IMG/VR virus record: IMGVR_UViG_3300045988_145590
Strand: one strand, 5' to 3'
From: a virus
DNA length: 38,758 nt
Positions 1 through 38,758 of the stretch are shown here, one piece after another. Every line of letters starts with the position of its first letter. The stretch's first letter is position 1. The notes under the pieces are model-generated. The model saw only the letters and a list, made by a program, of their open reading frames with translations. It searched no databases and was not told the origin of the DNA. Made by a program: the position numbers and the translations under genes.

Positions 1-68
1 ATTTGATTACGGAGTCCAAGAAAAATACGTTACAGATAATCCTATGAAAAATGTAGTTCGTACCATTG
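1..68. repeat. terminal overlap, copy 1 (identical to 38691-38758)
   Basis: Direct comparison of the first and last 68 nt shows an exact match that runs to both window edges. Confidence 0.95.
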
Positions 69-856
69 ATTTTGATACTCCAAAAAAAGAAATGAAATAC
101 TGGACATTAGAAGATTTTGATAGATTTTGTAAATCCCCAATAGAACACAATAGTTATTTTCTTCTTATATATTTTCTATATAAAATGGGGTGTAGAAGAG
201 GTGAAGCACTAGCGTTAACATGGGATGATATTGATTTTACAAACAAAACAGTTGATATAAAAAAAACAATGTCATTTAAAGTTAGACCACCTAGATCAAC
301 AACACCAAAAACGAAGAACAGTTATCGCATTATCACTATGCCGGATGATTTAATTGATTTATTGAAGAAGCATTATAATAAGTGCAGCAACTACTATGGA
401 TTTAAAACCAGCAGTTTAGTATTCGGCTACACAAAACCATTAGATCCAGAAAGTATTAGAAGATATTTACGTAATGCGATTAAAACAATAAATACTGATG
501 AAGATGGTAATTTATTAGCAGTAGACAAACAAGTTCCAGATATTAGACTTCATGATTTACGTCATAGTCACGCTTCCTATTTAATCCGCAATATGAATAA
601 AGGAAATTATAATGACTATGACATAGCAAAACGATTAGGAGATACAAGAGAAACGATATTTAACACATATGCACATTGGTTTAAAGAAAAAGATCAAGGA
701 ATTATTGATATGATGAATTCAAATGATAATAGTTCAACAACATTACAAAGTGATAATGAAATTACACAGTTAAGAAAATTAAAACAATTGTATGAACAAG
801 GTCTAATTACAGAAGATATATATATATTAAAACAAAAAGCACTATTAGATTTATAA
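2..856 (+). CDS. int: tyrosine integrase, C-terminal catalytic part (ORF continues from window end across the junction)
   Basis: The frame is open from the window start. Catalytic motifs present: RRGEALAL, HDLRHSHASYL (H-x-x-R) and NTYAHW (catalytic Tyr). The last 32 aa are SHOCT-like. Confidence 0.85.
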   Translation, partial: FDYGVQEKYVTDNPMKNVVRTIDFDTPKKEMKYWTLEDFDRFCKSPIEHNSYFLLIYFLYKMGCRRGEALALTWDDIDFTNKTVDIKKTMSFKVRPPRSTTPKTKNSYRIITMPDDLIDLLKKHYNKCSNYYGFKTSSLVFGYTKPLDPESIRRYLRNAIKTINTDEDGNLLAVDKQVPDIRLHDLRHSHASYLIRNMNKGNYNDYDIAKRLGDTRETIFNTYAHWFKEKDQGIIDMMNSNDNSSTTLQSDNEITQLRKLKQLYEQGLITEDIYILKQKALLDL

Positions 857-860
857 AATA

Positions 861-878
861 CCTCTCAAAATTGAGAGG
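861..878 (+). terminator. hairpin after integrase (CCTCTC / GAGAGG) followed by TTT
   Basis: Inverted repeat CCTCTCAA..TTGAGAGG lies 5 nt after the int stop codon. Confidence 0.5.
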
Positions 879-992
879 TTTGGGAAGATAATTGCAATTC
901 TAAACAAATTTATTAAGTTAATTTTGAAACGATTAATTTAACCAATATAATAATCTAATTCTATATATCTATGAATATAAAATATTTTTTTG

Positions 993-1020
993 TTGACAAA
1001 ATACTATTATTTCATATAAT
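993..1020 (+). promoter_or_regulatory. near-consensus sigma-A promoter with no downstream ORF
   Basis: TTGACA (993-998), 16-nt spacer, TATAAT (1015-1020). Confidence 0.5.
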
Positions 1021-1120
1021 ATAGATAGCTGGCTTTTTGTGTAGAGAGTTTAGTTAGCTGTACTAGTTAGACATGTGTCTATAAGCTTTTTGCACATAGG
1101 TTTGCGTAATTAAATTAGAA

Positions 1121-1143
1121 GAACATAGAACAATTTAATGTTC
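1121..1143 (-). terminator. hairpin downstream of the SIR2-like gene (GAACAT / ATGTTC)
   Basis: 6-bp stem with an 11-nt loop, 28 nt past the minus-strand stop and followed on the minus strand by TTCTAATTT. Confidence 0.4.
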
Positions 1144-1170
1144 GTTATTGAGAAAAGTTCAATTGCTTTC

Positions 1171-2787
1171 TTAGTTTTCTAAGAATTGTTGATTGGACTT
1201 TTCTTTATATTCTTCATAATTTTCTAGAAAATCTAAATATAATACACATCTTTTAAAGTGTGTATCTTTCATTTCGTTTGATATGAAATCATCAAATAAA
1301 TCTATACAAAAATTTCTTAAGTCCTCAGTTGATAATATATCTACGTTTTTTAAAAGAAGCATACATTTTTTATTTACAGAATCATAATCATTTATATGTT
1401 TTTCAATATCTTCATATTTTTCAAAAGATGGATAGTTTATAATTCGTTTCATAAGAGTTTTAGATATTATTTTTTCTTTTGCATCCTTACTCTTTATATA
1501 TTTAAGCAACCTTTCGTCGTTTTGTATTTTTTCTGGTATTTTTTTTGCATATTTGAAAATAGGTAACACTCTTTGATACGAAATAGATGAATAACGATCA
1601 AAGCAAACTTTCTCTGGTTTTAGGTTTTGGTTATCTTTTAAAATATCTTCAAAAATAATACTTTCTGGGAACATTTTATATCCGTTATCTTGTATAAAAT
1701 CTTCTCTATAACCAACTGCGATTGCCAGTGCTTTTGTATTTGATATTTTATCTAAATCCTCTATATTTATCATTAAAGCAGTTTCTTGTCCTTGATCTAC
1801 ACTCTTATCAACAATTTTTTTAACTACCTTACGAGTTTCTCTAATTTTTGATGCAGAAATTCCTGGAGTGATTTTGTTTAATATTTGAAATACTGAATAA
1901 AAATTATCAGTTTGTATTTCTGTGATTGGTATAATTTTACCTTCTGTGGTTGTAATATTATTTCTAATTTCAATTAGATTTCTCTCGTTTTTTTTCCAAG
2001 AAACAAATATTAAATGTTCATGAATATTGTCTAAATCCTTTTGAGTTAAACAGTCTAAAAAATCTTGAACTATTTTTTGGATATTTTCATCTGTAAAAGA
2101 GTAGCCAAGAAAGATGATTGGAGATTCTGAAAAAAGTGTTAACATTTTAGCTATAAAAAGTCTACGAGTTCGTTCGAATGACTTATAATCATTTTCTGTG
2201 ATTATAATTGAGTCAGCATCTGTAACACACCCATGTATTTTGTATATCTCAGCGATGTTATAACTATCAGAAGAAAACATTTCATATTGTCTTTTAAATA
2301 CAGTATAATCATTTTTAAAAACATGTTTTTCTAAAAACTGATCATAATTTGTCGTGATAATAGCAGAAACTTTATTTTTTAGTTTTTGAAATTCTTCTAA
2401 TTCTTTCTTTGCCCAAGGGGAATTATATAATTGCATGTTTTTAAATTTGATGGAAAGATACATTTTATAAGGAGAAACACCAGTTGAAACCCAGTTAGGA
2501 TTAGGATTTTTGATTTTTATTTTTCTTTGAAAAAAAGCTCTATTGAATTCGTTTTCTATAATTGTTCCTAACGCTTTATTTATTTCAAAATCAGTTAAAT
2601 TTTTACGTAATAATTCATCTTTATGTTGTTGATAAAAGTATGGGTCTTGATTTACTTTGTAAAAAGAAGTTTTCAATAAAGTTTCCCAGTCGGGAAATTT
2701 ATATAAATATCTTTTAGAAATACCAGAACCTATAAATAAAACAGGCATTTTTCTATTTTCTACAAGTTTTTCTAATATACTAGACAT
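1171..2787 (-). CDS. SIR2-like (SIR2_2/ThsA/DSR-type) NADase-fold protein with unassigned C-terminal domain, 538 aa
   Basis: Ordered motifs VLFIGSGISKRY, ITTNYDQFLE, IYKIHGCV and IIFLGYSFTDENI. The start was refined to ATG 2787, preceded by GGAGGA with a 9-nt spacing. Confidence 0.8.
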   Translation of the reverse strand: MSSILEKLVENRKMPVLFIGSGISKRYLYKFPDWETLLKTSFYKVNQDPYFYQQHKDELLRKNLTDFEINKALGTIIENEFNRAFFQRKIKIKNPNPNWVSTGVSPYKMYLSIKFKNMQLYNSPWAKKELEEFQKLKNKVSAIITTNYDQFLEKHVFKNDYTVFKRQYEMFSSDSYNIAEIYKIHGCVTDADSIIITENDYKSFERTRRLFIAKMLTLFSESPIIFLGYSFTDENIQKIVQDFLDCLTQKDLDNIHEHLIFVSWKKNERNLIEIRNNITTTEGKIIPITEIQTDNFYSVFQILNKITPGISASKIRETRKVVKKIVDKSVDQGQETALMINIEDLDKISNTKALAIAVGYREDFIQDNGYKMFPESIIFEDILKDNQNLKPEKVCFDRYSSISYQRVLPIFKYAKKIPEKIQNDERLLKYIKSKDAKEKIISKTLMKRIINYPSFEKYEDIEKHINDYDSVNKKCMLLLKNVDILSTEDLRNFCIDLFDDFISNEMKDTHFKRCVLYLDFLENYEEYKEKSNQQFLEN

Positions 2788-3190
2788 TCTATAAATCCTC
2801 CAAGTGTTAATAATATTTAAGTCTAACTTTAAAGTATCACAATACTCTAGATTTAAATAGGTATATATCAAATATTCAACTAATATCAATAAAAAAGTAG
2901 TTATAACATAGGATAAAAATTCTAAAGATTAGAGTTTACTTTTGCGATTACTTCTGTTTTTTAATAGTATAAGTAATAGAATGATTTGATAAATAAGCTT
3001 TAAAAGGTAGTTGTAATACTTTCTTTTATGATTATAAAATAACTTATTTATTAACTCAATATAGTATAAGTAAATAATATCAATTCCTTTTAAAAAATAA
3101 ATCAATATATATGTTTAATGGTATATGCTGTATAATTTAAGTGTAGCAGCTATCATTAAGAAGTGTCATGACATTCAGAAAGGAGAAGTT

Positions 3191-3319
3191 ATGACAGAGG
3201 AAGAATATAAGCAGAAAATCATAATGATGTTAAACGATATTCATTCAATAGAAGAAATCGAAGAAATATACACAGTTGTTATGTGGTATTTTATTAATCA
3301 ATCAAAAAGAGAGCATTAG
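3191..3319 (+). CDS. hypothetical 42-aa protein
   Basis: AAAGGAGAAG RBS lies 2 nt before the ATG. The internal start was chosen within the track ORF 3125-3319. Confidence 0.4.
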   Translation: MTEEEYKQKIIMMLNDIHSIEEIEEIYTVVMWYFINQSKREH

Positions 3320-3333
3320 TCGCTCTCTTTTTT
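3304..3333. terminator. bidirectional rho-independent terminator
   Basis: AAAAAGAGAGC - ATTAGTC - GCTCTCTTTTT. It has an A-run on one side and a T-run on the other, and it overlaps the converging ends of 3191-3319 and 3316-3690. Confidence 0.6.
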
Positions 3334-3690
3334 CATATTTTCTGCTAACGTTAAAAGAAAATTTTCCAGTGCATCTTGCTGATCTTCTGGTGCATTGAGA
3401 TAGGTTTTTAATATAATTCGTCCCTTATCAGAAAGATTATACTGACTTGCTAATTTATCAAGAAGAGTTTCTGGTACTTTTGTGAACATTTCCCCAGTAC
3501 CTTCGGTAAGCCAGAAGTAATCTACATTAAATTCTTTGCAGATTAATTTAGATAATTGACTTGTCAAGTTAAATACCCCATTTTCAATTCTACTTACAGA
3601 AGCCTTAGTGATTCCTAATTTGTTACCGAAAGCTTCTTGACTTAAATTCAAAGTTTTTCTTAGCTCTTTTACTCTATCGCTAATTTCCAT
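3316..3690 (-). CDS. CI-like XRE-family HTH repressor
   Basis: N-terminal HTH LRKTLNLSQEAFGNKLGITKASVSRIENG. The gene is divergent from the early operon and sits next to the integrase region. Confidence 0.85.
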   Translation of the reverse strand: MEISDRVKELRKTLNLSQEAFGNKLGITKASVSRIENGVFNLTSQLSKLICKEFNVDYFWLTEGTGEMFTKVPETLLDKLASQYNLSDKGRIILKTYLNAPEDQQDALENFLLTLAENMKKESD

Positions 3691-3710
3691 AAGTACCTCC
3701 TTCCGTTTAA

Positions 3711-3738
3711 ATTATAACACAAAAGTTACGAAAAGCAA
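3711..3738 (-). promoter_or_regulatory. repressor-gene promoter (TTGCTT - 16 nt - TATAAT with TGT extension)
   Basis: Reverse complement reads TTGCTT..TTGTGTTATAAT, about 20 nt upstream of GGAAGGAGG-ATG. Confidence 0.5.
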
Positions 3739-3795
3739 CAAAATGAGTTGACATAGTTGCGATAAGAATCTATAATGTATACGTAAAGCAACAAA
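3728..3795. promoter_or_regulatory. putative operator set (three GCAAC cores)
   Basis: ACGAAAAGCAACAAA (3728-3742) and ACGTAAAGCAACAAA (3781-3795) are direct repeats. An inverted GTTGC core lies at 3756-3760, inside the spacer of the early promoter. Confidence 0.35.
3748..3776 (+). promoter_or_regulatory. early rightward promoter, perfect consensus
   Basis: TTGACA (3748-3753), 17-nt spacer, TATAAT (3771-3776). Confidence 0.7.
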
Positions 3796-3807
3796 GGAGG
3801 TGTGAAA

Positions 3808-4924: not shown

Positions 4925-5110
4925 ATGAATGAACTAAAAAAAATTAGAGAGCGATTAGGACTCAATCAAAAAGAAATGGCTGAACACATAGGCGTGTCTG
5001 CGTCTTATTATTACAAAGTAGAAAGCGGAAGCCAAAATCCAAGTTATGAGTTTTTGAAAAAAATAAAAAAGGCATTTCCAAACATAAGCATAGATAAAGT
5101 GTTATTTTAA
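4925..5110 (+). CDS. Cro-like XRE-family HTH protein, 61 aa
   Basis: LKKIRERLGLNQKEMAEHIGVSASYYYKVESG HTH motif. Confidence 0.8.
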   Translation: MNELKKIRERLGLNQKEMAEHIGVSASYYYKVESGSQNPSYEFLKKIKKAFPNISIDKVLF

Positions 5111-5119
5111 AACAAAACA

Positions 5120-5144
5120 CTTGTAAGAGGGCAATTCTTACAAG
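5120..5144 (+). terminator. 9-bp hairpin after the Cro-like gene (no clear U-tract)
   Basis: CTTGTAAGA - GGGCAAT - TCTTACAAG. Confidence 0.3.
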
Positions 5145-5506
5145 CGTCTGTCTTAATTTGTTTACCTAACATTCTATGCAAAATGTGAAATATAAGTTTT
5201 AAGTTTTATCCCTAACTTTCCAGCTAGTAATAAATCAAAAACCTTATATATACATTTGCGCCATATTGCCCATAGCGCTTCTATGTAGAATTCCATCACT
5301 TAAGCAGTTTAAGTTCTGCATGTAGCCTTTAAAAAGCTGATTAAAGGTTGCCCTTTAGTCGATGGAATATGAGTTTATGTTCTCCAACAGTTGCACTCAT
5401 ATGAAAGGAACAGGGCAAAATCAAAAGTTGTGTCAAAAAGACCACTCTCCATTCTGCCCAAAGGCAAGAATATATCAACACAATTTGGAAATCATGAAAA
5501 GTATTT
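5145..5506 (+). ncRNA. candidate structured non-coding RNA or leader (unclassified)
   Basis: No RBS-supported ORF. Stems at 5322-5351 (11 bp including 2 G-U), 5367-5402 (8 bp) and 5413-5459 (8 of 9 bp). The stretch is visibly less AT-rich than its flanks. Confidence 0.3.
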
Positions 5507-7306: not shown

Positions 7307-8170
7307 ATGAGAAAAAAGAGAGGATATATAGACTATGACTATGAAGCTGCATTCACAGATCCTATTGATTATTCAAATGAAAGAAATATAGAAAAACTTC
7401 TGCAGCAGGGAAAAGTGAAAAGTGTATATACTACCAAAACCATAAAAGCTGGAAATCAGTTTGAAGTAGAAATATATCCCAGTTTTACTAAAAAAGAAAG
7501 CACTGGGATGAACTTAAAGCCTAGAAGTTCTACAGCACAGAAAAATTTGAATGATAAAAACGCTAGAAAAAAATTAGAGCGTTTAATAAATGCTAACTTT
7601 AGCAATGGAGATTTATGGGTAACGTTAACTTATGATAATGAACATCTTCCAGAATCAATGAAAGACGCATTAAAGAATATTGGAAACTATATGAGAAGAA
7701 TCAATTACAGAAGAGAAAAAATGGGATTATCAAATGCAAAATATATATACATTACAGAATACAATCCAAAGAAAAAGATACGCTGCCATCATCACTTAAT
7801 CATGGATGGAGCGTTAAGTATGGATCTTGTGGAGAAAATGTGGAAATATGGAAAAAGAAACAATGTAAGAAGAACACAGGAAGATGAAGATGGAGGTTTA
7901 ACAGGTTTAGCAAAATATCTTGTGAAAGATCCTGCTGGGAGTAAACGCTGGTGCAGTTCTAAAAATTTGAAAAAACCAGTAGAAAGTAAAAGCTATCATG
8001 CATTCAGAAGCAGGCAGGTTAGAAAAATGGTAGAAAACAGAGAGTGTGTAAAAGAGCTACTAGAAAAAAGATACAAAAATAGAAGTCTGATTAATTTTGA
8101 AATAAAGAAAAATGAGATTAATGGTTACTTCTATGTATATGCAAGAATGACGGAAAGGAGAAATCAATGA
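7307..8170 (+). CDS. HUH rolling-circle replication initiator (pC194/phiX174-superfamily-like Rep)
   Basis: Motif 1 LWVTLTYD, motif 2 RCHHHLIMDG (HUH) and motif 3 GLAKYLVKD (catalytic Tyr), in canonical order. Confidence 0.8.
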   Translation: MRKKRGYIDYDYEAAFTDPIDYSNERNIEKLLQQGKVKSVYTTKTIKAGNQFEVEIYPSFTKKESTGMNLKPRSSTAQKNLNDKNARKKLERLINANFSNGDLWVTLTYDNEHLPESMKDALKNIGNYMRRINYRREKMGLSNAKYIYITEYNPKKKIRCHHHLIMDGALSMDLVEKMWKYGKRNNVRRTQEDEDGGLTGLAKYLVKDPAGSKRWCSSKNLKKPVESKSYHAFRSRQVRKMVENRECVKELLEKRYKNRSLINFEIKKNEINGYFYVYARMTERRNQ

Positions 8171-9054
8171 AAAGAAAAGATTTAGAAGAACACATAGAAG
8201 AATACCTGTTAGAAGAGCAAGAAGACGAAAAAGCAAAAAACACGCTGATACATTACAGACACATCATTAATATGTTCGTTTCTTCGCTTCCAGATGATGA
8301 AATAACAAAAGTGGATTTCATGCGTTTTAAAGAAATAATGCTGGAGAAGTATAAGCCTAAGACCGTCAGTAACTATATAACGATTGTAAACAAATTTATA
8401 AAATACGTAGAAATGTCAATGGATGAAAGCATACAGGATTTCGATTTTAACAGGATGAAGAAATACTACAGTAAACAGACTTTAAAAAACATCAAGATTC
8501 AGCAGGAAGCCAGTTTAAAAGAAGTGCTAGAGCCTATTGATTTAAAACGTATGCTTCGCATGGCTAAAAAGCTGGAGGAATGGGATTTATATTACATTAT
8601 GAAGGCTATCGCTTATACAGGAGTACGAGCAGAAGAGTTAAAAATATTCACAGTAGAAAATCTGGAGTCAAACTATATCAAAGTTAAGAATAAAGGAAAG
8701 ATACGAAACGTAATCGTGCCGCAGGATTTACGAAGGGATTTACTGAAATACTGCAAAAATGCAGGAATTACTACGGGTTATATATTCCCCGGAAAGAAGT
8801 CTGGAACAATGCTACACAGTACGACAATTTACAAGCGATTAAAGAAGTTGGCTGGACAATGCAGAGGTGTAAAGAAGTCAAAAGTACACGCTCATTCATT
8901 TAGACATTTGTTTGCGATTAAATATATGGAAGAATACGGAAATATTAGTGAACTGGCGGATATTCTAGGACACTCCAGCATTGAAACAACACGTATATAC
9001 ACAAGAACCACCGACAAAATGAAGCGAGAGCGCATGGAACGTATGAAATATTAA
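8167..9054 (+). CDS. Xer-like tyrosine recombinase (second recombinase in the genome)
   Basis: AYTGVRAEEL, HAHSFRHLFA and LGHSSIETTRIYT motifs. The start overlaps the rep stop (ATGA at 8167-8170). Confidence 0.9.
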   Translation: MKRKDLEEHIEEYLLEEQEDEKAKNTLIHYRHIINMFVSSLPDDEITKVDFMRFKEIMLEKYKPKTVSNYITIVNKFIKYVEMSMDESIQDFDFNRMKKYYSKQTLKNIKIQQEASLKEVLEPIDLKRMLRMAKKLEEWDLYYIMKAIAYTGVRAEELKIFTVENLESNYIKVKNKGKIRNVIVPQDLRRDLLKYCKNAGITTGYIFPGKKSGTMLHSTTIYKRLKKLAGQCRGVKKSKVHAHSFRHLFAIKYMEEYGNISELADILGHSSIETTRIYTRTTDKMKRERMERMKY

Positions 9055-9440: not shown

Positions 9441-9869
9441 ATGATGTTTGAAGAAGAATTAAAAAAGGAGAAAAATCCTGCTGTTATTAGGATAGGGAAT
9501 TATTTAAAGAAAAGAGCTGAAACAGATACTTCAGTTAAAAATAATCTGAACAAGGAAAACAAATCTCTAAAAGAATGCTGGGATTATGTTTTGGGAGAGG
9601 TTGCAAAAACGATGTATAGAAATGGTAATTTTGGATGTGCTGCAGGAGATGATGAAGATCTATATGCATTGGCAGTACATTACTATGACGAGGATGATAT
9701 CAAAATTGAACCACTTCCTACAAATATGAAAGTTGAAGCAAAAATGGATGAAGATAAAAAAGAGGAAAAAACTGCAGAAATCGAACCTAAAGAAATACAA
9801 AAAGAAAAAGTAAAAAGAATTTCAAAAAGCAAAAAAGACCCTGTAGATGGACAGATTAGTTTGTTTTGA
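9441..9869 (+). CDS. PcfK-like protein (family that includes AcrIIA9)
   Basis: The pattern IRIGNYLKKRAE..ECWDYVLGEVAK..GCAAGDDEDLYALAVHYYDEDDI plus a Lys/Glu-rich tail is followed directly by a PcfJ-like gene, as in pCF10. Confidence 0.55.
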   Translation: MMFEEELKKEKNPAVIRIGNYLKKRAETDTSVKNNLNKENKSLKECWDYVLGEVAKTMYRNGNFGCAAGDDEDLYALAVHYYDEDDIKIEPLPTNMKVEAKMDEDKKEEKTAEIEPKEIQKEKVKRISKSKKDPVDGQISLF

Positions 9870-9877
9870 GGTGGATT

Positions 9878-11182
9878 ATGAAAGATACGAAATTATTGGA
9901 ACAATTAGGGGATACAAAACTTAAATGGCCCAAAGGACTTAGAAAGTATATATATAATGAAACCCTGTACAAAACAACAAATGAATGTACTACATATTAT
10001 GTTAATACTTTAGAAATTTGGAGAAAACGTTTATTAATGAGAACTTTTGCTTTCTGTGTTCCTAAAGGTGTTGATCGTCCATTCGATATGGGAATACAAG
10101 AAGTTTGCAGAAGATTAGAGGGAGAAAAAGAAGTATTGCTTTGTCAAATTGAAAATAGTTCGATGGGAGGAAGAACAGTATATTTCACAGAAACAGGGAA
10201 GTGGATAACTAGAAAAGAAAGGTCTAGTTATTATGCTTGGTATACTGGTGGTAAAAGTAATTGGTGGTTCTTTGATTATGATATGTTTGATTATAAGGAA
10301 TGGATGAATAAGTTAGAAATGCCATTTTGTGGATATGATTCACCGAATTATGTATATAAGATACCTTTTTTTCAGTATGTTGAACTGTATAAAAAATATC
10401 CAAAAATAGAGCTTTTGGCTAAAGGTGGTATGTGGAAGTTGATTACCGGAGCAAGATATTTAAACTTAAAAGGTAAGTCATTTGAACAAATTTTTAAAAT
10501 ATCTTCTTGCTGGAAAAAACATATCAAAGAGTTGGAAATAAGCGATATATTGCTTATTAGAAAAAATGACATTCATACCATGAATGAATTAAATTATTTT
10601 AAAAAAGCATCTTCGAGAAATCTAAAATACATTAAAAAATATTTTAATAGCAAAACAATAAACTATGTAAATAAGTTCTCGGATAATTTTCCATTCAGCG
10701 AATACAATGACTACTTACGAATGGCAGAAGAAATGGGATGTCAAATGGAAAGGAATAGGGTGTTGTTTCCAAAAGATTTACATGAAGCACATGACCATAT
10801 GCTTAATCACTATCAAGAGGTTAAGGATAAGGAAGTAAATGAAGGAATAGAGAAAACAGCTAAAAAGCTGATGAAATATAAATTTAATTCAGATGGTTTA
10901 TTTATAGTTCCAGCAATGAATAATAAAGAGCTGATTAATGAAAGTAGAGTGCTAGATCATTGCGTTAGAACATATGCAAGTAGAGTTTCAAAAGGGGAGA
11001 CAGGTATTTTATTTATCAGGAAAAAAGAAGAACCAGAAACACCTTTTGTAACTTTAGAACTTAAAGGTAAAAGAGTTGTTCAAGTTAGAGGATATAAAAA
11101 CAATGTACATAATCCCCTTGATCAATCAGTTATAGACTTCGTACACAAATGGGAACAAGAATTTAGATTGGAAGGGTTTTAA
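9878..11182 (+). CDS. PcfJ-like protein
   Basis: C-terminal LDHCVRTYASRVSKGETGILFIRKKEEPETPFVTLELKGKRVVQVRGYKNN is typical of the PcfJ-like domain. ATG 9878 was preferred over the TTG at 9866. Confidence 0.6.
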   Translation: MKDTKLLEQLGDTKLKWPKGLRKYIYNETLYKTTNECTTYYVNTLEIWRKRLLMRTFAFCVPKGVDRPFDMGIQEVCRRLEGEKEVLLCQIENSSMGGRTVYFTETGKWITRKERSSYYAWYTGGKSNWWFFDYDMFDYKEWMNKLEMPFCGYDSPNYVYKIPFFQYVELYKKYPKIELLAKGGMWKLITGARYLNLKGKSFEQIFKISSCWKKHIKELEISDILLIRKNDIHTMNELNYFKKASSRNLKYIKKYFNSKTINYVNKFSDNFPFSEYNDYLRMAEEMGCQMERNRVLFPKDLHEAHDHMLNHYQEVKDKEVNEGIEKTAKKLMKYKFNSDGLFIVPAMNNKELINESRVLDHCVRTYASRVSKGETGILFIRKKEEPETPFVTLELKGKRVVQVRGYKNNVHNPLDQSVIDFVHKWEQEFRLEGF

Positions 11183-14706: not shown

Positions 14707-15012
14707 ATGGACTATTATGCAATTGTAGGAATGGTTGTGATTGCTTTTATTGCATTGTTTGGCTTTCTTCATTCTTTTAAAAAGAGTATCGAGGATGAAA
14801 AAAAGCCAATGCAGGAATTGAACAACAGCATCATCCGTTTAAATGTGAATTTTGAAAATATGCTAAAAAATGACCAGATACGAGATAATCGGATAAGAAT
14901 TCATGGGAAAGAAATAGATGAATTAGATGATCGTTTAAATGAAGTTGAACATGAGCAGTCAAATCACGAAACAAGAATTTCAAGTCTTGAAAGATGGAGG
15001 GAAAAACAATGA
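14707..15012 (+). CDS. N-terminal TM plus coiled-coil protein (holin-associated / XhlA-like?)
   Basis: TM segment YAIVGMVVIAFIALFGFL, then a coiled coil. It lies between the holin and the lysin. Confidence 0.5.
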   Translation: MDYYAIVGMVVIAFIALFGFLHSFKKSIEDEKKPMQELNNSIIRLNVNFENMLKNDQIRDNRIRIHGKEIDELDDRLNEVEHEQSNHETRISSLERWREKQ

Positions 15013-16049
15013 AGTTATTTGGTATTGATATTTCGGAACATAACGGAAATGTTGACATGAAGAAAATCAAAAACAGCGGAGTTAAATTTGCAATCATCCG
15101 TGCATCATGGGGACATTTTCAAGAAGATAAACAATTAAGAAATAATGTAAAAAAATGCAACGATGTTGGGATGAATTATGGATTGTATCACTATTCATAC
15201 GCACGCAATGATGCAGAAGCAAAACAGGAAGCAGAAAACTTTTTGGCATTAGCTAAACAATTCAGTGGGCGCAGCTATCCACTAGTATTAGATATGGAAG
15301 ATGCTGATGGCTGGAAAAAAGAGCAGGGTGTTTCAATGGAACAGGAAGTGCGCACAATCCGTATATGGAAAGAAATTATTGAAGGTGCAGGGCAATATTT
15401 AATGCTTTACTGCAACAAAGATTGGTGGAATAAATTGCGTGCTATTGATGCAAAACTGATTGATAGCATTGACTTATGGCTGGCGCATTGGGGCATTTCT
15501 GAACCATCTGTGAATTGTGGGATTTGGCAATATTCAAGTGACGGAAAAGTTAACGGATCAAGCGTCAGAACAGACGTTAATTATGCGTATAAAGATTATC
15601 CATCATTAATAAAGGGAAGTTCATCAAAACCATCTGAACCAGCTAAACCTAGCAAGCCATCAAAGCCTAACACCAAGTACAAAGTTGGTGATACAGTCAA
15701 TATTAATGGTATTTATGTATCAAAAGATTCAAAAGAAAAATTGAAGCCAGCAGTTTCAAGTGGAAAAATCACAAAAATTTATGCAGGTTCACACAATCCT
15801 TATTTAATTGGAAATGGTACAGGATTTGTAAACGATGATTGCATTACAGGTAAAAAAGGAAGCACTTCATCAAAAACATTAAAAGTTGGTATGAAAGCTA
15901 AACCAAAAAAAGCAGTATCTTATGACGGTGTCAAACTAGATTCTTTTGTTACAAAAAAATATTTTAAAGTTATTGAGGTTGAAAAAAAACGTGTAGTACT
16001 TGGAGACGGTATAAATACTGCTTTCAATATTGATAATTTGATTTATTAA
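15009..16049 (+). CDS. endolysin: GH25 muramidase plus two SH3-like cell-wall-binding repeats
   Basis: KLFGIDISEHNG.. is a GH25 N-terminus. A PSKPSEPAKPSKPSKP linker is followed by two repeats (KVGDTV.. and KVGMKA..). Start refined to ATG 15009 behind GGAGGG. Confidence 0.9.
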   Translation: MKLFGIDISEHNGNVDMKKIKNSGVKFAIIRASWGHFQEDKQLRNNVKKCNDVGMNYGLYHYSYARNDAEAKQEAENFLALAKQFSGRSYPLVLDMEDADGWKKEQGVSMEQEVRTIRIWKEIIEGAGQYLMLYCNKDWWNKLRAIDAKLIDSIDLWLAHWGISEPSVNCGIWQYSSDGKVNGSSVRTDVNYAYKDYPSLIKGSSSKPSEPAKPSKPSKPNTKYKVGDTVNINGIYVSKDSKEKLKPAVSSGKITKIYAGSHNPYLIGNGTGFVNDDCITGKKGSTSSKTLKVGMKAKPKKAVSYDGVKLDSFVTKKYFKVIEVEKKRVVLGDGINTAFNIDNLIY

Positions 16050-16565: not shown

Positions 16566-19500
16566 ATGAGAAGTATATGTAACATTGATTTCAAAAATAA
16601 TGTGGCATGGGGTTCATCTGCATCTGCTCAAAGCATTAACGAAATATTATTAAGCATCTATCCTACCGAAAACATGAAGAGTAACCTACGCATTGAAATC
16701 ACGGATACCAAGGGAAAAGTTATAACAGAATCTGTTGAACGTGAGAGAAATGGTTTAATCAATCATACCCTCTCTTCCCTTTATTATTTAACAGCAGGAA
16801 CATTTAAGTTACGCTTGTTGTCAGACGAAGAGAACAGCTCTTATGTCTTGTATAAAACACTTGAAAACCTTACTGATGGTGATGATATTGTATGCAAGTA
16901 TCGTTTTGCTACACAGACATTTGAGGTTTATAAAATCGTGATTGAATCTAGTGCTGGCAGTGATTATGATGATAAACCGCTATGGGATGCAGTTGAAGAA
17001 ATTAGGGTTAAATACTTAACTGTTGATGCGTTTAATGCTGAAAAAGCAACCATCTATAATCTGATTGCTGAAAAAGCAAATATTACAGACTTAACAGCGA
17101 TTAATGCTGAAATTGAAAACTTAAAAGCTAACAAAGCTGATATAGGAGAATTAAATGCAGAGATTGCAAAGGTAAATGAACTGATTGCGAAAAAAGCAAA
17201 TGTTGATGATTTACATGCGATAGAAGCAACAATTGAACAGTTAAATGTTCATATTGCCAACATTGATAAAGCTATTATTGATGTAGCACATATCAGTGAT
17301 TTAGAAGCAATCAATGCTAAAATCGAAAGTATTGAAGCAGGAAACATTAATACAGAAGCATTAGAAGCACATTTTGCACGAATAGACTTGGCTAATATCA
17401 AAGATGGATGTATTACAACCGCAATGATTGGTGAAGGTGTTATAGAATCTGCACAGATTGCTGATGGTTCTATAACAGATGCGAAGATTGTCACATTAAC
17501 AGCTAACAAATTAACAGCTGGGCGTATTGATGCATCTGATATTGAGGTAGTCAATTTGAATTGCGCTAATTTAACAGTTGGAACAATCAACGGACATCAG
17601 ATAACAAATGGTGCTATTGATTGGGATAAGCTAGCAAGTCAAGTTGGTGATACGATAAATAACGCAGACGAAAACGCATCGCAGGCGTTGGATGATGCGT
17701 TGAAAGCATATCAGGAAGCACAGAAAGCAAACAGTGCAGCAGGAACGGCACAAAGCACTGCAAATGGTAAGAATACAGTTATTTATGCATCCGCACAACC
17801 TAGCACATCTGGAAGAAAAACAAATGATGTTTGGTTTGATACTGATGATAGTTATAAGATGTATTACTTCAATGGCACAGCATGGGTAGCTGCTCAATTT
17901 GGAACAAATGCAATCAAGAATGCAAGTATCACAACCGCATTGATTGCAGATGCAGCTATAAACAATGCTAAGATTGCAAATCTTGATGCTGGTAAGATTA
18001 CATCTGGTTATATTTCATCAGATAGAATCCAAGCAGGTAGTATCGTTATAGGTAAACTTGACGATGCAACAAAGAAAACAATTACAGATGCAAATAGCAA
18101 TGCTTCAAAAGCGTTAAGTGATGCAGCTGCTGCAAGTTCAAAAGCTGGAAATGCACAAAGTACAGCAAATAGTGCGTTAAGCAAGGCAAACAATGCGCAA
18201 AGCACTATTGACAATATGGAAGTTGGCGGAAGGAATTTATTACTTAAAACAAAAGAATATATACCAGCTAGCAATACTAATTTGTCAGGAAGCATGGCTA
18301 GCAACGGACAATTTGAAATAGCAAAAGATAAATTTCAAGACTTCACAGTACGATTTTTAAATTCTGTCCCTCAACCAGTTAACGGTAGTGGAAAAGCTGT
18401 ATCTGAACATAGAATAAAAAATTTTAATTACAAAGAAATATATACATTTTCTTTTTGGGCTAAGGGAACTTTAAATGCTTTATGTTGTTTCTTTTACGGA
18501 GCAAAAACTGGATATGTTAAAGCGAGAGTATTAGCTACTAGCACTGGTTATTCTAATGCTACATTCGGAAACGGTAGAGCACCATTAAAAATTGCTACTA
18601 ATTCATGGAAAAAATATTGGGTTACATGGGAATTAGGTAGTAGTGGAGATTTAAGTATTGATAAATTAGCGCTTATTCGTACCGATACCGGTACAAATCA
18701 AGGTAGTCTAATGGTATGTGGCGTTAAACTTGAAAAAGGAAATAAAGCTACAGACTGGACACCAGCGCCAGAAGATGTAGATCAGAAAATTTCTGATACC
18801 GATGCTAGAATTACAGAAGTAGACAGATATATAGCAAACTGGTGTTATAACAACGATAAAACATATATCAACGGTGGAAAGATATATACAGGCACAGTAA
18901 ATGCGTCACAAATAGCAGCTAATGCAATCATAGCCGGCAAGATAGCAGCTAATGCAGTAACAACTGCTAACTTACAAGCTGATTGTGTAAATGCAGATAA
19001 GATAGCTGCTAAAGCAATTAACGCAGAACATATCAATGGTGCAATTATCACAAGTGATAAGATTGTAGCTGGTGCGATCACAGGCGATAAGATAGCAGCC
19101 AGAACGATAGATGCCACAAAGATAGTAGCAAATACGATAACTGCCGCTGAAATCAAAGCAGGAACTATCACAGGAGATAAAATAGCAGCAGGAACGATTG
19201 ATGCATCTAAGATTAAAGCAGGAACGATTACAGCTACACAGATAGCAGCAAATGCAATAACATCTGAAAAGATTACAGCTGATGCAATAACTTCTGCGAA
19301 AATAAAAACGGATGCAATCAAATCAAGAAACTATGTAGCTGGTTCTGTTGGCTCTTTCTTGAATTTAGCAGATGGTACATTTACAAGCAAAAATTTGAAA
19401 TGGACAGCAGATGGAAGTATTACAGCAAGTAATGTAAATCTAACAGGCGCAATAACCGCAACAGGTGGAAAAATTGCAGGATGGAGCATAGGCAATTCAA

Positions 19501-20630
19501 CTATATCTAAACAAAGTGGAGATTTTTATGTTGTATTGAGTTCAAGTTTAACCAGTAATGGAGATGTACTTGTTGTAAGAAAAGGAACATCATCATACAC
19601 ATATCCGTTCTGTGTACGAAACGATGGAACGTTATATGCATCAAATGCAACAATCACAGGAAAAATATCTGGTTCAAGTATTTCAGGTGGAACTATATCT
19701 GGTGCATCTATTACAGGCGGAAGTATTACATCAGGTACATCAATAAATGTTACAACTGATTTAAAAGTAGGTAACAACATTTATTTGAATCAAGGGATAA
19801 ACTCAATAAAACAAATTGTTTTTGCAAGTGGAAATATGATTATGAATACATGGACAAATAGTTATAACTATTTAAGTGTGCGTTCTGATTATAGATGTGC
19901 ACTGGTTTCTGGCAATGCGCAAATAGCGGCGGTTGGAAATACTGGCGAAGTAGAGATAAATGTAAACGGCAATGGCACATGGATAGGTGATAAGTATTCG
20001 GCAGGTGGATGGCTTGGTTTTTACAATTGGGCACACGGCACTCGTAAAGGTTGGTTTGGTCATGATGGAGGAACAAGTTTTAATTGGTGGAATGAATCGA
20101 ATGGAACAAATGGTGTGTTTTTAGATGCTACAGCAAATGGTAATTGGACACATGGTAGATTTTGCCCATCGTTTGGTGGAATGGCGCTAGGTTCATCAAA
20201 CAATAGATGGTATAGGTTATATGCTTCAAATGGAAGTGATACATCATCAGATATTCGATTAAAAACAAACATAAAAAAGTATGATGAACGTTATGAACGA
20301 ATGTATATGGAGTTAAAGCCTGTTACCTATGAGTTAAAAGAAAATCTAGGACAGACACAATGCGGATTGATTGCACAATGGGTATATGATGCAATGATAA
20401 ACAATGGCATCGAAGAAAATGAATTTGGCGCATATAATCATCGTTTGGAAGATGATAGTTATGGTCTAGTATACGAGCAGTTTACATCACTTAATATGCA
20501 CATGATTCAAAAGACTATTAAGCGAGTAGATACACACGATGATGAAATAGCTAGATTAAAAGAAAGAGTTACAGAATTACAATCAAAATTAAATGCCTAT
20601 ATATTAGGAGAAATGGAGATAAGAACATGA
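16566..20630 (+). CDS. tail fibre / receptor-binding protein, 1354 aa, with C-terminal S74 intramolecular-chaperone domain
   Basis: Coiled-coil and 10-residue xAxxIxxxKI repeats, a central globular domain, and SSDIRLKTNIKKY..LKPVTYELK.. (S74-type autoproteolytic chaperone) from about 20247. Confidence 0.85.
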   Translation: MRSICNIDFKNNVAWGSSASAQSINEILLSIYPTENMKSNLRIEITDTKGKVITESVERERNGLINHTLSSLYYLTAGTFKLRLLSDEENSSYVLYKTLENLTDGDDIVCKYRFATQTFEVYKIVIESSAGSDYDDKPLWDAVEEIRVKYLTVDAFNAEKATIYNLIAEKANITDLTAINAEIENLKANKADIGELNAEIAKVNELIAKKANVDDLHAIEATIEQLNVHIANIDKAIIDVAHISDLEAINAKIESIEAGNINTEALEAHFARIDLANIKDGCITTAMIGEGVIESAQIADGSITDAKIVTLTANKLTAGRIDASDIEVVNLNCANLTVGTINGHQITNGAIDWDKLASQVGDTINNADENASQALDDALKAYQEAQKANSAAGTAQSTANGKNTVIYASAQPSTSGRKTNDVWFDTDDSYKMYYFNGTAWVAAQFGTNAIKNASITTALIADAAINNAKIANLDAGKITSGYISSDRIQAGSIVIGKLDDATKKTITDANSNASKALSDAAAASSKAGNAQSTANSALSKANNAQSTIDNMEVGGRNLLLKTKEYIPASNTNLSGSMASNGQFEIAKDKFQDFTVRFLNSVPQPVNGSGKAVSEHRIKNFNYKEIYTFSFWAKGTLNALCCFFYGAKTGYVKARVLATSTGYSNATFGNGRAPLKIATNSWKKYWVTWELGSSGDLSIDKLALIRTDTGTNQGSLMVCGVKLEKGNKATDWTPAPEDVDQKISDTDARITEVDRYIANWCYNNDKTYINGGKIYTGTVNASQIAANAIIAGKIAANAVTTANLQADCVNADKIAAKAINAEHINGAIITSDKIVAGAITGDKIAARTIDATKIVANTITAAEIKAGTITGDKIAAGTIDASKIKAGTITATQIAANAITSEKITADAITSAKIKTDAIKSRNYVAGSVGSFLNLADGTFTSKNLKWTADGSITASNVNLTGAITATGGKIAGWSIGNSTISKQSGDFYVVLSSSLTSNGDVLVVRKGTSSYTYPFCVRNDGTLYASNATITGKISGSSISGGTISGASITGGSITSGTSINVTTDLKVGNNIYLNQGINSIKQIVFASGNMIMNTWTNSYNYLSVRSDYRCALVSGNAQIAAVGNTGEVEINVNGNGTWIGDKYSAGGWLGFYNWAHGTRKGWFGHDGGTSFNWWNESNGTNGVFLDATANGNWTHGRFCPSFGGMALGSSNNRWYRLYASNGSDTSSDIRLKTNIKKYDERYERMYMELKPVTYELKENLGQTQCGLIAQWVYDAMINNGIEENEFGAYNHRLEDDSYGLVYEQFTSLNMHMIQKTIKRVDTHDDEIARLKERVTELQSKLNAYILGEMEIRT

Positions 20631-36632: not shown

Positions 36633-37364
36633 ATGAAAGAATTAAAGGTATTTGATTTCAACGGAAAAAATGTAATAGATAGTAGGTTGGTTGCAGAAAT
36701 GATTGTTATGCAGCATAAAGAACTACTTAGAAAAATTAAAGGATATGATGAGATTTTAACCAGCGCAAAATTGCGCTCGTTAGATTTCTTTATTCCAAAT
36801 ACATACATAGATAGCAAGGGAGAAGAAAGGCCATGTTACCTGCTCACAAAACAAGGATGTGAAATGATTGCGAACAAGCTTACAGGAGAAAAAGGAGTAT
36901 TGTTTACCGCTAGGTATGTAGAAGCATTTAACAAAATGGAAGAAGTACTAAATGATCAACTAGCAATCAGCGAATTTAAAAAACAGGAAATAGAAACGAA
37001 GCACATGAATGCAAAAACACGAATGGCTTCTTTATGGTTAAAGATGGCGGACAGAGTACCATTTAACAAAGAGTACACTATGATATGCGAAAGCTACGCA
37101 TCACAGGTATTAGCTGGAGAAAGAGTTTTGCCACTTCCGGAATGCAAAGAAAAATATTATTCTGCTGGAGAAGTAGGAAATATGTTAGGAGTATCCGCAA
37201 ATACAATAGGAAGAATTGCAAATAAAAACAGTCTTAAAACAGAAAACAATGGAAAATATTTTTTTGATAAATCAGCATACTCTAATAAAGAAGTGCAGAC
37301 ATTTAAATATAACCTACATGGAGTAGAAGAACTAAGGAAAATCCTAGAAAAATCAGTAATATAG
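36633..37364 (+). CDS. Rha-family antirepressor-like regulatory protein
   Basis: VFDFNGKNVIDSRLVAEMI..HKELLRKI..CYLLTKQGCEMIANKL (pRha-like N-terminus), plus a C-terminal HTH-like segment GEVGNMLGVSANTIGRI. Confidence 0.7.
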   Translation: MKELKVFDFNGKNVIDSRLVAEMIVMQHKELLRKIKGYDEILTSAKLRSLDFFIPNTYIDSKGEERPCYLLTKQGCEMIANKLTGEKGVLFTARYVEAFNKMEEVLNDQLAISEFKKQEIETKHMNAKTRMASLWLKMADRVPFNKEYTMICESYASQVLAGERVLPLPECKEKYYSAGEVGNMLGVSANTIGRIANKNSLKTENNGKYFFDKSAYSNKEVQTFKYNLHGVEELRKILEKSVI

Positions 37365-38462: not shown

Positions 38463-38758
38463 ATGAAAAATGCTAAACGACTATTTATAGAACAGTTTAA
38501 AGCTAACGGCACTTTATCTGATATTACGTTTAAAGAACTTGTTGAAAAGTACTTGTTATCCTATAAAAGAGGAAAGGAATCAACAAAAAGCCAAAGATAT
38601 AACCAGTAAAGGACTTCAACTTTTTATTCATGATGAAAAAGAATTATTTGAAAAATATATAAAGAAAATCTTTTATGCAATAAAACAAGTATTTGATTAC
38701 GGAGTCCAAGAAAAATACGTTACAGATAATCCTATGAAAAATGTAGTTCGTACCATTG
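38463..38758 (+). pseudogene. int: integrase N-terminal region, interrupted by a +1 frame change (or a sequencing indel) at the A5 run 38585-38589
   Basis: Frame A (ATG 38463) reads MKNAKRLFIEQFKANGTLSDITFKELVEKYLLSYKRGKESTK and stops at 38607-38609. Frame A+1 reads ..AKDITSKGLQLFIHDEKELFEKYIKKIFYAIKQVFDYGVQEKYVTDNP and joins the catalytic part at 2-856. Confidence 0.6.
38691..38758. repeat. terminal overlap, copy 2 (identical to 1-68)
   Basis: Exact 68-nt identity. Confidence 0.95.

What the first reader, a model, noticed from the sequence alone, without database searches (positions are those of the whole stretch)
1171..2787. Stand-alone SIR2-like protein with an unassignable C-terminal domain in the integrase/repressor moron slot: candidate single-gene NADase defence
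Seen:
- A minus-strand 538-aa ORF, with the start refined to ATG 2787 behind GGAGGA.
- Its first ~300 aa carry, in order, VLFIGSGISKRY, ITTNYDQFLE, IYKIHGCV and IIFLGYSFTDENI.

Established: this is the motif series of the SIR2_2 fold used by the NAD-depleting defence effectors ThsA, DSR1/2, SIR2-HerA and SIR2-pAgo. The TTNYD Asn and KIHG His correspond to their catalytic residues.

Inference:
- The last ~240 aa (from about LIFVSWKKNERN) match nothing I can place. There is no Gly-rich SLOG signature, so this is not canonical ThsA.
- No TIR/ThsB, HerA or Argonaute gene is adjacent, and the protein is about half the size of DSR1/2.
- The gene lies between int and the CI-like repressor, is antiparallel to the lytic operons, and is visibly more AT-rich than the structural genes. 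It also has its own terminator. This is the classic signature of a lysogen-expressed defence moron.
- It may therefore be an undescribed single-gene SIR2 architecture whose C-terminal domain acts as the sensor.
Basis: partly seen in the sequence, partly recalled or inferred. Interest (0 to 1): 0.8.

Follow-up and report, generated by a model that had tools for sequence, protein, structure and literature searches.

The report
Phage-borne SIR2 candidate defence gene (PDC-S25)
A temperate phage carries, next to its integrase and repressor genes, a single gene for a probable NAD-destroying enzyme that likely protects the host from other phages; the family is already listed as an untested defence candidate (PADLOC PDC-S25), so this is a new member and not a new kind.

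Summary
A 538-aa minus-strand ORF (2787..1171) starts at an ATG behind GGAGGA. It has a Pfam SIR2_2 domain (E=7e-26). Its Asn147 and His185 align to the BcThsA positions N112 and H152 and are invariant in homologues from many phyla. A predicted structure gives a SIR2 fold for residues 1-305, closest to DSR2, ThsA and KomC. Residues 306-370 are conserved but poorly modelled. Residues 371-538 form an all-helical domain with no match by sequence or fold in Pfam, PDB or BFVD.

The claim of an undescribed architecture fails. The whole protein, and its C-terminal part alone, match PADLOC's single-gene candidate PDC-S25 (E=3.7e-116 and 4.6e-25) and PHROG 2695. More than 670 protein clusters of about 520-545 aa exist in bacteria, one archaeon and phages.

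No partner gene is conserved. The neighbours are integrases, repressor modules, or restriction-modification and BREX genes.

The most likely function is a phage-triggered NAD+ hydrolase that aborts infection, held in check by the faster-evolving C-terminal half. I found no experimental test of the family.

Verdict: a real and well-placed member of a catalogued but unvalidated kind, of moderate interest.

The parts
1171..2787 (-). Coding sequence of the 538-aa SIR2-like protein, stop codon 1173..1171. It is a member of PADLOC PDC-S25 and PHROG 2695.
1873..2787 (-). N-terminal SIR2 (Rossmann-type) domain, residues 1-305. It holds the GxG NAD-binding motif (G20, G22), Asn147 (codon 2349..2347) and His185 (codon 2235..2233).
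   Evidence: Pfam SIR2_2. AlphaFold2 pLDDT is mostly 80-97. Foldseek matches DSR2, ThsA and KomC. The alignment to BcThsA places N147 on N112 and H185 on H152. Both residues are invariant in 67 close and 45 distant homologues.
1678..1872 (-). Conserved connector, residues 306-370. It carries family-invariant residues (R316, T318, A355, A357, G359, Y360, G369, Y370), yet residues 320-367 are modelled with pLDDT below 50.
   Evidence: There is a weak hit to PDB 1rlk (E=0.004-0.02), which I treat as not significant.
1174..1677 (-). All-helical C-terminal domain, residues 371-538, specific to the PDC-S25 family. I propose it as the regulatory or sensor module.
   Evidence: AlphaFold2 pLDDT is about 80-97. 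There is no fold match and no Pfam or PDB sequence match. It matches PDC-S25 profile positions 293-514. In 1.84 billion representative proteins it occurs only in proteins of this architecture. It diverges about twice as fast as the SIR2 domain.
2796..2801 (-). Shine-Dalgarno sequence GGAGGA, 8 nt upstream of ATG 2787.
   Evidence: Read directly from the sequence.
2802..3303 (-). Non-coding leader or promoter region of the gene. Sigma-70-like sites lie at 3059..3031 (10 of 12 positions) and 2871..2844 (9 of 12).
   Evidence: These are consensus matches only, and such sites were no more numerous across the scanned region 800-3800 than in shuffled sequence. ORFs of 58 aa (3105..2929, minus strand), 64 aa (3125..3319, plus) and 40 aa (3276..3398, plus) overlap this region. 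The 64-aa ORF has no Pfam or PADLOC match.
3304..3332 (.). Palindromic, bidirectional terminator-like hairpin at the end of the HTH gene. It would separate the SIR2 gene into a transcription unit of its own.
   Evidence: 11 paired bases with an A-run on one side and a T-run on the other.
1118..1215 (-). Stable branched RNA structure spanning the stop codon. It could be an atypical terminator or an element that stabilises the 3' end.
   Evidence: -30.1 kcal/mol, z=-6.0, and none of 200 shuffles folds as well. The inverted repeat is 1146-1163 with 1192-1209.
860..879 (.). Canonical terminator hairpin between the convergent integrase and SIR2 genes.
   Evidence: -12 kcal/mol, followed by a T-rich tail.
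3316..3690 (-). Context: a 124-aa HTH_3 repressor-like gene. A perfect 12-of-12 divergent promoter-like site lies at 3748-3776 on the plus strand.
1..856 (+). Context: the C-terminal part of a tyrosine integrase gene that spans the circular junction (from about 38465). It is convergent with the SIR2 gene and disrupted in this assembly.

Best explanation
The gene encodes a one-protein, prophage-carried anti-phage effector of the PADLOC PDC-S25 family.

Shown:
- The N-terminal 305 residues form a defence-type SIR2 domain with the NAD-binding GxG motif and the Asn/His pair that align to ThsA N112 and H152.
- The C-terminal 230 residues are family-specific, mostly helical and fast-evolving.
- No partner gene is conserved.
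- The gene sits in the lysogeny module and looks like an independent transcription unit.

Inferred:
- In the lysogen the protein is made constitutively and kept inactive.
- Infection by another phage supplies a trigger that acts through the C-terminal half. The trigger is most likely a phage protein, less likely a small molecule.
- The trigger releases or assembles the SIR2 domains. These hydrolyse NAD+, starve the infected cell and abort the infection.
- The resident phage must avoid triggering the protein during its own lytic cycle.
For: - SIR2_2 HMM at 91.5 bits.
- The nearest solved relatives by sequence and by fold are all antiphage SIR2 NADases: ThsA, KomC and DSR2.
- Asn147 and His185 align to BcThsA N112 and H152. 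They are 100% conserved in 67 close and 45 distant homologues.
- There is no CxxC zinc module of the classical deacylase sirtuins (read from the sequence).
- The protein matches PDC-S25 over its full length, and its C-terminal part matches alone. Relatives from seven distant taxa and two phages match as well.
- Length is uniform at 518-545 aa.
- No partner is conserved. The commonest downstream neighbours are tyrosine integrases (34 of 128) and serine recombinases (15 of 128). The commonest upstream neighbours are HTH_3 proteins (16 of 134) and M78 peptidases (14 of 134). The rest include BREX, restriction-modification and other defence-associated genes.
- The position recurs. The gene lies between repressor and integrase in phages Javan227 and IPP23 and in 10 of 10 metagenomic prophage loci. 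In 24 of 33 IMG/VR contigs the contig ends less than 4 kb downstream of the gene.
- The C-terminal half diverges about twice as fast as the SIR2 domain, as expected for a specificity module.
- GC is 25% against 30-40% elsewhere in the genome. A terminator upstream and one downstream isolate the gene.
Against: - Neither this protein nor, as far as I could find, any PDC-S25 member has experimental data for NADase activity or phage resistance.
- The trigger and the role of the C-terminal domain are pure inference. That domain has no structural analogue, and residues 320-367 are not modelled with confidence.
- SIR2 domains can also transfer ADP-ribose or deacylate proteins.
- The promoter sites are only consensus matches in AT-rich DNA.
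- The host is unknown, and the integrase of this assembly is disrupted, so stable lysogeny by this exact genome is not assured.
Confidence: 0.6

Rival explanations
1. The protein is an orphan effector that responds to a small-molecule signal, working like Thoeris in trans. The conserved connector and helical domain would bind a nucleotide-derived second messenger made by a host-encoded or phage-induced enzyme, and that binding would activate the SIR2 NADase.
For: - The closest sequence relatives of the SIR2 domain are ThsA proteins.
- A handful of C-terminal residues (R316, G359, G369, P409, D519) are conserved across phyla, as a ligand pocket might be.
Against: - There is no SLOG, STALD, CARF, SAVED or other known ligand-binding domain by HMM or by fold.
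- No signal-producing partner such as a TIR protein or cyclase is conserved next to the gene in about 130 loci.
- The C-terminal domain diverges fast.
Confidence: 0.1
2. The SIR2 domain acts as an ADP-ribosyltransferase or deacylase on a specific protein or nucleic-acid target of the phage or host. It would not work by depleting bulk NAD+.
For: - The SIR2 fold supports these chemistries in other lineages (general knowledge, not tested here).
- The Asn/His pair is compatible with both activities.
Against: - The protein lacks the zinc-binding CxxC pairs of deacylase sirtuins (read from the sequence).
- It falls in SIR2_2, and its nearest solved relatives are deposited as NAD+ hydrolases or SIR2-domain NADases (ThsA, KomC) or belong to the DSR2 defence system, described as depleting NAD+.
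Confidence: 0.12
3. The gene serves the phage itself and does not exclude competitors. It could be an addiction or toxin module that stabilises the prophage, or an NAD-linked input to the lysis-lysogeny decision.
For: - The gene lies inside the lysogeny module, next to the repressor and integrase.
Against: - No antitoxin-like partner is conserved.
- The same family occurs outside prophages, beside BREX and restriction-modification genes.
- PADLOC lists the family as a phage defence candidate.
Confidence: 0.08
4. The gene is a decaying, non-functional passenger in a defective prophage.
For: - The neighbouring integrase is disrupted in this assembly.
Against: - The ORF is intact in 25% GC DNA, and every family-invariant residue is present.
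- An identical protein occurs on an independent contig that has an intact integrase.
Confidence: 0.03

Closest known systems
PADLOC 'phage defence candidate' PDC-S25 (profiles PDLC04968 and PDLC04967), equivalent to PHROG 2695
   Same: Both match end to end (E=3.7e-116 and 1.1e-114). The C-terminal domain alone also matches PDC-S25. Length is about 530 aa and the system is a single gene.
   Different: The window protein belongs to a divergent, mostly Lachnospiraceae-type sub-clade. It scores lower (387 bits) than the other members tested (449-841 bits). The family itself has no published function that I could find.
ThsA, the SIR2-SLOG effector of type I Thoeris (PDB 6lhx, 8bto, 8wc0; 7uxt is, from memory, a streptococcal ThsA)
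   Same: It is the closest solved relative of the SIR2 domain by sequence. The TTNYD Asn and K(I/M)HG His align exactly. Size is similar (476-497 aa).
   Different: There is no SLOG/STALD domain, since the ThsA profiles stop near residue 311 and the C-terminus is all-helical. No ThsB/TIR gene is present.
DSR2, defence-associated sirtuin 2 (PDB 8wy8 and related entries)
   Same: It is the best fold match for the SIR2 domain (E=1e-10). Like this protein it is a single-protein sensor-effector with a helical C-terminal region.
   Different: DSR2 is about 1000 aa. The window protein does not reach either PADLOC Dsr profile at E<=1. The full-length superposition adds nothing beyond the SIR2 domain: query-normalised TM-score is 0.37 for both full-length and SIR2-only chains. 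The C-terminal model alone finds no DSR2 chain.
KomC, the SIR2 NADase of the KomABC system (PDB 8zsf, 9v0g)
   Same: The SIR2 domains are related by sequence and by fold.
   Different: KomC is a 264-278 aa SIR2-only subunit that works with partner proteins. This protein has a fused 230-aa C-terminal half and no conserved partner.
Prophage-encoded single-gene abortive systems in the lysogeny module, such as Tha of Staphylococcus aureus prophages (PMC11087260, abstract seen)
   Same: Both are carried by a prophage and presumably act as lysogen-expressed sensor-effectors. Both face the problem of avoiding self-triggering.
   Different: Tha uses a HEPN effector and is unrelated in sequence. The comparison is only by way of working and location, and I tested no property of Tha here.

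Membership tests
Pfam SIR2_2 (PF13289) | HMM score above the gathering threshold | tested here: met
   91.5 bits against a cut-off of 24.5, residues 142-270.
Pfam SIR2_2 (PF13289) | Rossmann-type SIR2 fold with the catalytic Asn and His | tested here: met
   Foldseek gives E=1e-10 to DSR2, with ThsA and KomC following. N147 aligns to BcThsA N112 and H185 to H152. Both are invariant in homologues.
PADLOC PDC-S25 (candidate single-gene system) | Full-length match to the family profile, including the family-specific C-terminal half | tested here: met
   Residues 3-523 match profile positions 13-514 of 517 at E=3.7e-116. The C-terminal 243 aa alone give E=4.6e-25 on profile positions 293-514.
PADLOC PDC-S25 (candidate single-gene system) | Stand-alone gene with no obligatory partner | tested here: met
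   No neighbour family is present in more than about 27% of roughly 130 loci, and the neighbours are recombinases, repressor modules or other defence genes.
PADLOC PDC-S25 (candidate single-gene system) | Demonstrated anti-phage activity | not testable with these tools
   No experimental report was found in the held literature.
ThsA / type I Thoeris | C-terminal SLOG (STALD) ligand-binding domain | tested here: not met
   The ThsA profiles cover only residues 138-311. The C-terminal domain is predicted all-helical. There is no SLOG hit in Pfam or PADLOC.
ThsA / type I Thoeris | Adjacent ThsB (TIR) gene | tested here: not met
   The neighbouring ORFs give no TIR hit in Pfam or PADLOC.
DSR1 / DSR2 | Protein of about 1000 aa or more with the DSR-type C-terminal region, matching the Dsr profiles | tested here: not met
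   The protein is 538 aa. It has no Dsr1 or Dsr2 hit at E<=1. The C-terminal model finds no DSR2 chain.
SIR2-HerA, SIR2-APAZ/pAgo and Lamassu (LmuA-SIR2) | Adjacent HerA ATPase, Argonaute, or LmuB SMC-like partner | tested here: not met
   No such gene was found among the nearby ORFs or the large ORFs scanned. The flanking genes are an integrase and an HTH regulator, and most of the large ORFs scanned match phage structural, replication or lysis families.
Classical sirtuin deacylases (Pfam SIR2, CobB-like) | Zinc-binding module with two CxxC pairs | tested here: not met
   The six cysteines (C187, C246, C395 and three in the helical domain) form no CxxC pair (sequence). Only SIR2_2 is hit, not the classical SIR2 family.

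The most novel reading that the evidence does not exclude
The family-specific C-terminal half is a conserved connector that AlphaFold cannot model plus an orphan all-helical domain. It could be a new type of sensor that directly recognises a conserved phage protein or a metabolite produced by infection. PDC-S25 would then be a minimal one-protein sensor-NADase at half the size of DSR2. Its prophage-borne members would also have to tell the resident phage from invaders.
Probability: 0.35. Interest if true: 0.55.

Novelty: new member of a known kind. Interest (0 to 1): 0.35.

Why it matters
If the prediction holds, this would be a compact SIR2 immune protein carried by phages of gut Bacillota. 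It is abundant in metagenomes, with more than 670 protein clusters, and it sits in the slot where prophages keep weapons against rival phages.

Validating it would turn a database 'candidate' into a real system. It would also give a tractable 538-aa model for asking how a non-SLOG, non-DSR C-terminal domain switches a SIR2 NADase on.

It does not open a new category. SIR2 effectors fused to variable sensor domains are an established theme, and the family is already catalogued.

Tried and rejected
1. ThsA, DSR1/2, SIR2-HerA, pAgo and Lamassu membership. All were rejected because the C-terminal domain or the partner gene is missing.
2. An identity for the C-terminal domain. All of these searches were negative:
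   - Pfam on 24 family members.
   - A PDB profile search.
   - Foldseek against PDB and BFVD with a dedicated model.
   - An exhaustive phmmer search of 1.84 billion representatives, which found only proteins of the same architecture or fragments.
   The weak hit to PDB 1rlk (E=0.004-0.02) falls on the low-confidence connector, so I treat it as not significant.
3. A conserved partner. The 98-aa HTH protein just upstream in four P0004 loci shares only generic HTH similarity with the window's 124-aa HTH. It is not conserved across the family.
4. Literature. Six searches found PDC-S25 only as a PADLOC prediction in an E. coli O157 strain. Supplementary files and subscription journals were not covered.
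5. Identity of the phage. There is no megablast match in 50,697 phage records. The host remains unknown. The closest SIR2 relatives are in Lachnospiraceae and other Clostridia.
6. NCBIfam has no specific model for the family.

Full report
**1. Observation**

The minus strand carries an ORF from 2889 (TTG) to 1171. The ATG at 2787 lies 8 nt after GGAGGA (2801..2796) and gives 538 aa. Homologues are 526-545 aa and align from residue 1-5, so the refined start is right.

The four motifs are present in the order reported, at residues 16-27, 144-153, 181-188 and 224-236. The gene region has 25% GC against 30-40% across the replication and structural genes.

**2. What the protein is**

Pfam finds SIR2_2 at 91.5 bits against a cut-off of 24.5. 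The decisive result comes from two other libraries:
- PADLOC profile PDLC04968, 'PDC-S25', matches residues 3-523 on profile positions 13-514 of 517 at E=3.7e-116. The second PDC-S25 profile gives E=5e-83.
- PHROG 2695, of unknown function, matches the full length at E=1e-114.
- NCBIfam has no model for the family.

The C-terminal 243 aa alone still hit the C-terminal part of both PDC-S25 profiles (E=4.6e-25 and 1e-7) and no other defence family. Membership therefore does not rest on the SIR2 domain alone.

**3. Structure**

An AlphaFold2 model built on 67 homologues has mean pLDDT 82. It divides into three parts:
- Residues 1-305: a confident alpha/beta SIR2 domain.
- Residues 320-367: pLDDT below 50, even though this stretch holds family-invariant residues.
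- Residues 368-538: a confident all-helical domain.

Foldseek against the PDB puts DSR2 first (E=1e-10), followed by ThsA and KomC. Chains that hold only the SIR2 domain give the same query-normalised TM-score (0.37) as full-length DSR2, so the match is confined to the SIR2 domain.

By sequence the nearest solved proteins are ThsA and KomC. Asn147 aligns to BcThsA N112 and His185 to H152.

A separate model of residues 296-538 finds nothing in the PDB (best E=1.4, probability 0.06) or in BFVD (best E=0.04). A profile of the region finds no PDB sequence and no consistent Pfam family.

An exhaustive phmmer search of 1.84 billion representative proteins with residues 301-538 found 36 proteins. All the full-length ones are 529-535 aa with the domain at about 305-530. 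The domain is therefore known only in this architecture.

**4. The family**

A word-indexed search gave 672 clusters at E<=1e-3. The top 120 are 51-72% identical, mostly about 530 aa (two longer, at most 620), come mostly from metagenome and sequencing-run assemblies, and the few that carry names are labelled 'SIR2 family protein' from Lachnospiraceae, Clostridium and [Ruminococcus] gnavus.

In one genome per species, 217 stretches encode relatives. Representatives from the following taxa are all full-length PDC-S25 matches:
- Paenibacillus
- Mycobacteroides
- Veronia
- Bilophila
- Conyzicola
- an Acidimicrobiales MAG
- the archaeon Methanolobus
- phages Javan227 and phBC6A51

Lengths are 518-545 aa throughout.

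In 45 homologues below 40% identity, the NAD-binding and catalytic residues (G20, G22, R26, N147, D149, H185, G186, D200, Y201) are 100% conserved. The C-terminal half keeps only R316, G359, G369, P409 and D519.

Identity to the window protein is 62% in the SIR2 domain against 40% in the helical domain among close relatives, and 33% against 16% among distant ones.

**5. Context**

In the window the gene lies between a tyrosine integrase and a 124-aa HTH_3 protein (3690..3316). The integrase runs on the plus strand to 856 and is convergent with the gene. A perfect divergent promoter-like site follows the HTH gene at 3748-3776.

Transcription signals around the gene:
- A palindromic terminator at 3304-3332 separates the HTH gene from the SIR2 gene.
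- Promoter-like sites lie at 3059..3031 and 2871..2844.
- A very stable structure covers the stop codon.
- A canonical hairpin lies at 879..860.

None of the neighbouring or large ORFs scanned matches a TIR, HerA, Argonaute or SMC family. Most of the large ORFs are phage replication, lysis, packaging, head or tail genes.

The position recurs in relatives:
- Between integrase and repressor in phages Javan227 and IPP23.
- After the lysin in phBC6A51.
- Between the repressor module and the integrase in 10 of 10 metagenomic prophage loci.
- In 24 of 33 IMG/VR contigs with a full-length copy, the contig ends less than 4 kb downstream of the gene. Only 3 are cut off upstream.

Across about 130 loci the first sizeable downstream ORF is a tyrosine integrase in 34, a serine recombinase in 15 and an M78 peptidase in 14. 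The upstream ORF is an HTH_3 protein in 16 and an M78 peptidase in 14. Other upstream neighbours include restriction-modification, BREX and other defence-associated genes. No partner is conserved.

**6. Mechanism**

What is shown is a defence-type SIR2 domain with intact catalytic residues, fused to a family-specific and faster-evolving C-terminal half. It is encoded as a stand-alone unit in prophage lysogeny modules and defence neighbourhoods.

What is inferred, by analogy with ThsA and DSR2, is that the enzyme is held inactive in the lysogen. A trigger from an infecting phage would act through the C-terminal half and switch on NAD+ hydrolysis, which aborts the infection. My confidence is about 0.6.

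The rivals are activation by a small-molecule signal in trans (0.1), ADP-ribosyl transfer or deacylation of a specific target (0.12), a phage-selfish function (0.08) and a dead gene (0.03).

**7. Comparison and novelty**

The protein works like DSR2 or ThsA but belongs to neither family. It lacks the SLOG domain, a ThsB gene, a match to the Dsr profiles and a partner gene.

It is a member of PDC-S25, a named candidate in PADLOC-DB. PDC systems are treated in the literature as unvalidated candidates. I found PDC-S25 mentioned only as a prediction in an E. coli O157:H7 strain, and no functional study.

I therefore rate it a new member of a known, candidate kind. Interest is 0.35. The gene is real, well placed and experimentally attractive, but it would not surprise a specialist.

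Noticed in passing
window 1-68 and 38691-38758: The last 68 nt of the window are identical to the first 68 nt. The window is therefore a circular assembly of a temperate phage genome of about 38.69 kb.
   Followed up: yes
window about 38465-38758 joined to 69-856 (+); compare L093:2586-3839: The tyrosine integrase spans the junction and is disrupted. An independent contig with an identical SIR2 protein is 99.8% identical over window 1-3219 and carries an intact 417-aa integrase. Against that copy, the window lacks the first 38 codons and has an internal deletion and frameshift near 38590-38610. This could be a real defect or an assembly artefact.
   Followed up: partly
window 5114-5344 (-): There is a full-length Rfam match to the FuFi-1 sRNA family (RF02986, 115.6 bits, E=1e-24), just beyond the Cro-like HTH gene 4925-5110. 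Its function is unknown, and it may hint at the host range.
   Followed up: no
window 993-1020 (+), also 924-951 (+): A perfect 12-of-12 sigma-70-like promoter site, with an 11-of-12 site nearby, lies in the 314-nt non-coding gap between the integrase stop codon and the SIR2 stop codon. It points antisense into the 3' end of the SIR2 gene. It could drive an antisense RNA, be part of attP, or be chance in AT-rich DNA.
   Followed up: no
window 1118-1215 (-): An unusually stable branched RNA structure covers the SIR2 stop codon (-30.1 kcal/mol, z=-6.0). I did not test whether it is conserved in homologues.
   Followed up: partly
window 8167-9051 (+), with 7307-8167 and 9866-11179: A second tyrosine recombinase (295 aa) sits in the replication module between a REP_ORF2-G2P replication protein and a PcfJ-like protein. 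The R. gnavus prophages that carry a PDC-S25 homologue share the REP_ORF2-G2P and PcfJ genes.
   Followed up: no
window 14994-16046 and 16566-20627 (+): A GH25 lysin and a 1354-aa protein with a Peptidase_S74 (endosialidase chaperone) domain, typical of tail fibres, lie upstream of the large terminase (22341), not after the tail genes. A Rha-family regulator is at 36633-37361. The gene order is unusual.
   Followed up: no
L004-L007, positions 7559-7855: The four prophage loci that carry the 69%-identical homologue P0004 all have a 98-99 aa HTH gene about 145 nt upstream of the SIR2 gene, although the genes further upstream differ (RNase_T/BRCT, HSDR_N). It shares only generic HTH similarity with the window's HTH and is not family-wide.
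   Followed up: partly
L003 (Streptococcus phage IPP23) 4004-5595: In this pneumococcal phage the homologue is annotated as two CDSs of 1074 and 492 nt. This suggests a split or decaying copy.
   Followed up: no
L047, L049 (Paenibacillus); L076, L083 and others: Distant PDC-S25 members sit inside BREX-like clusters, with PglX-like, PglZ and BrxC-like neighbours, or beside type I restriction-modification genes. This is independent support by genomic association for a defence role.
   Followed up: partly
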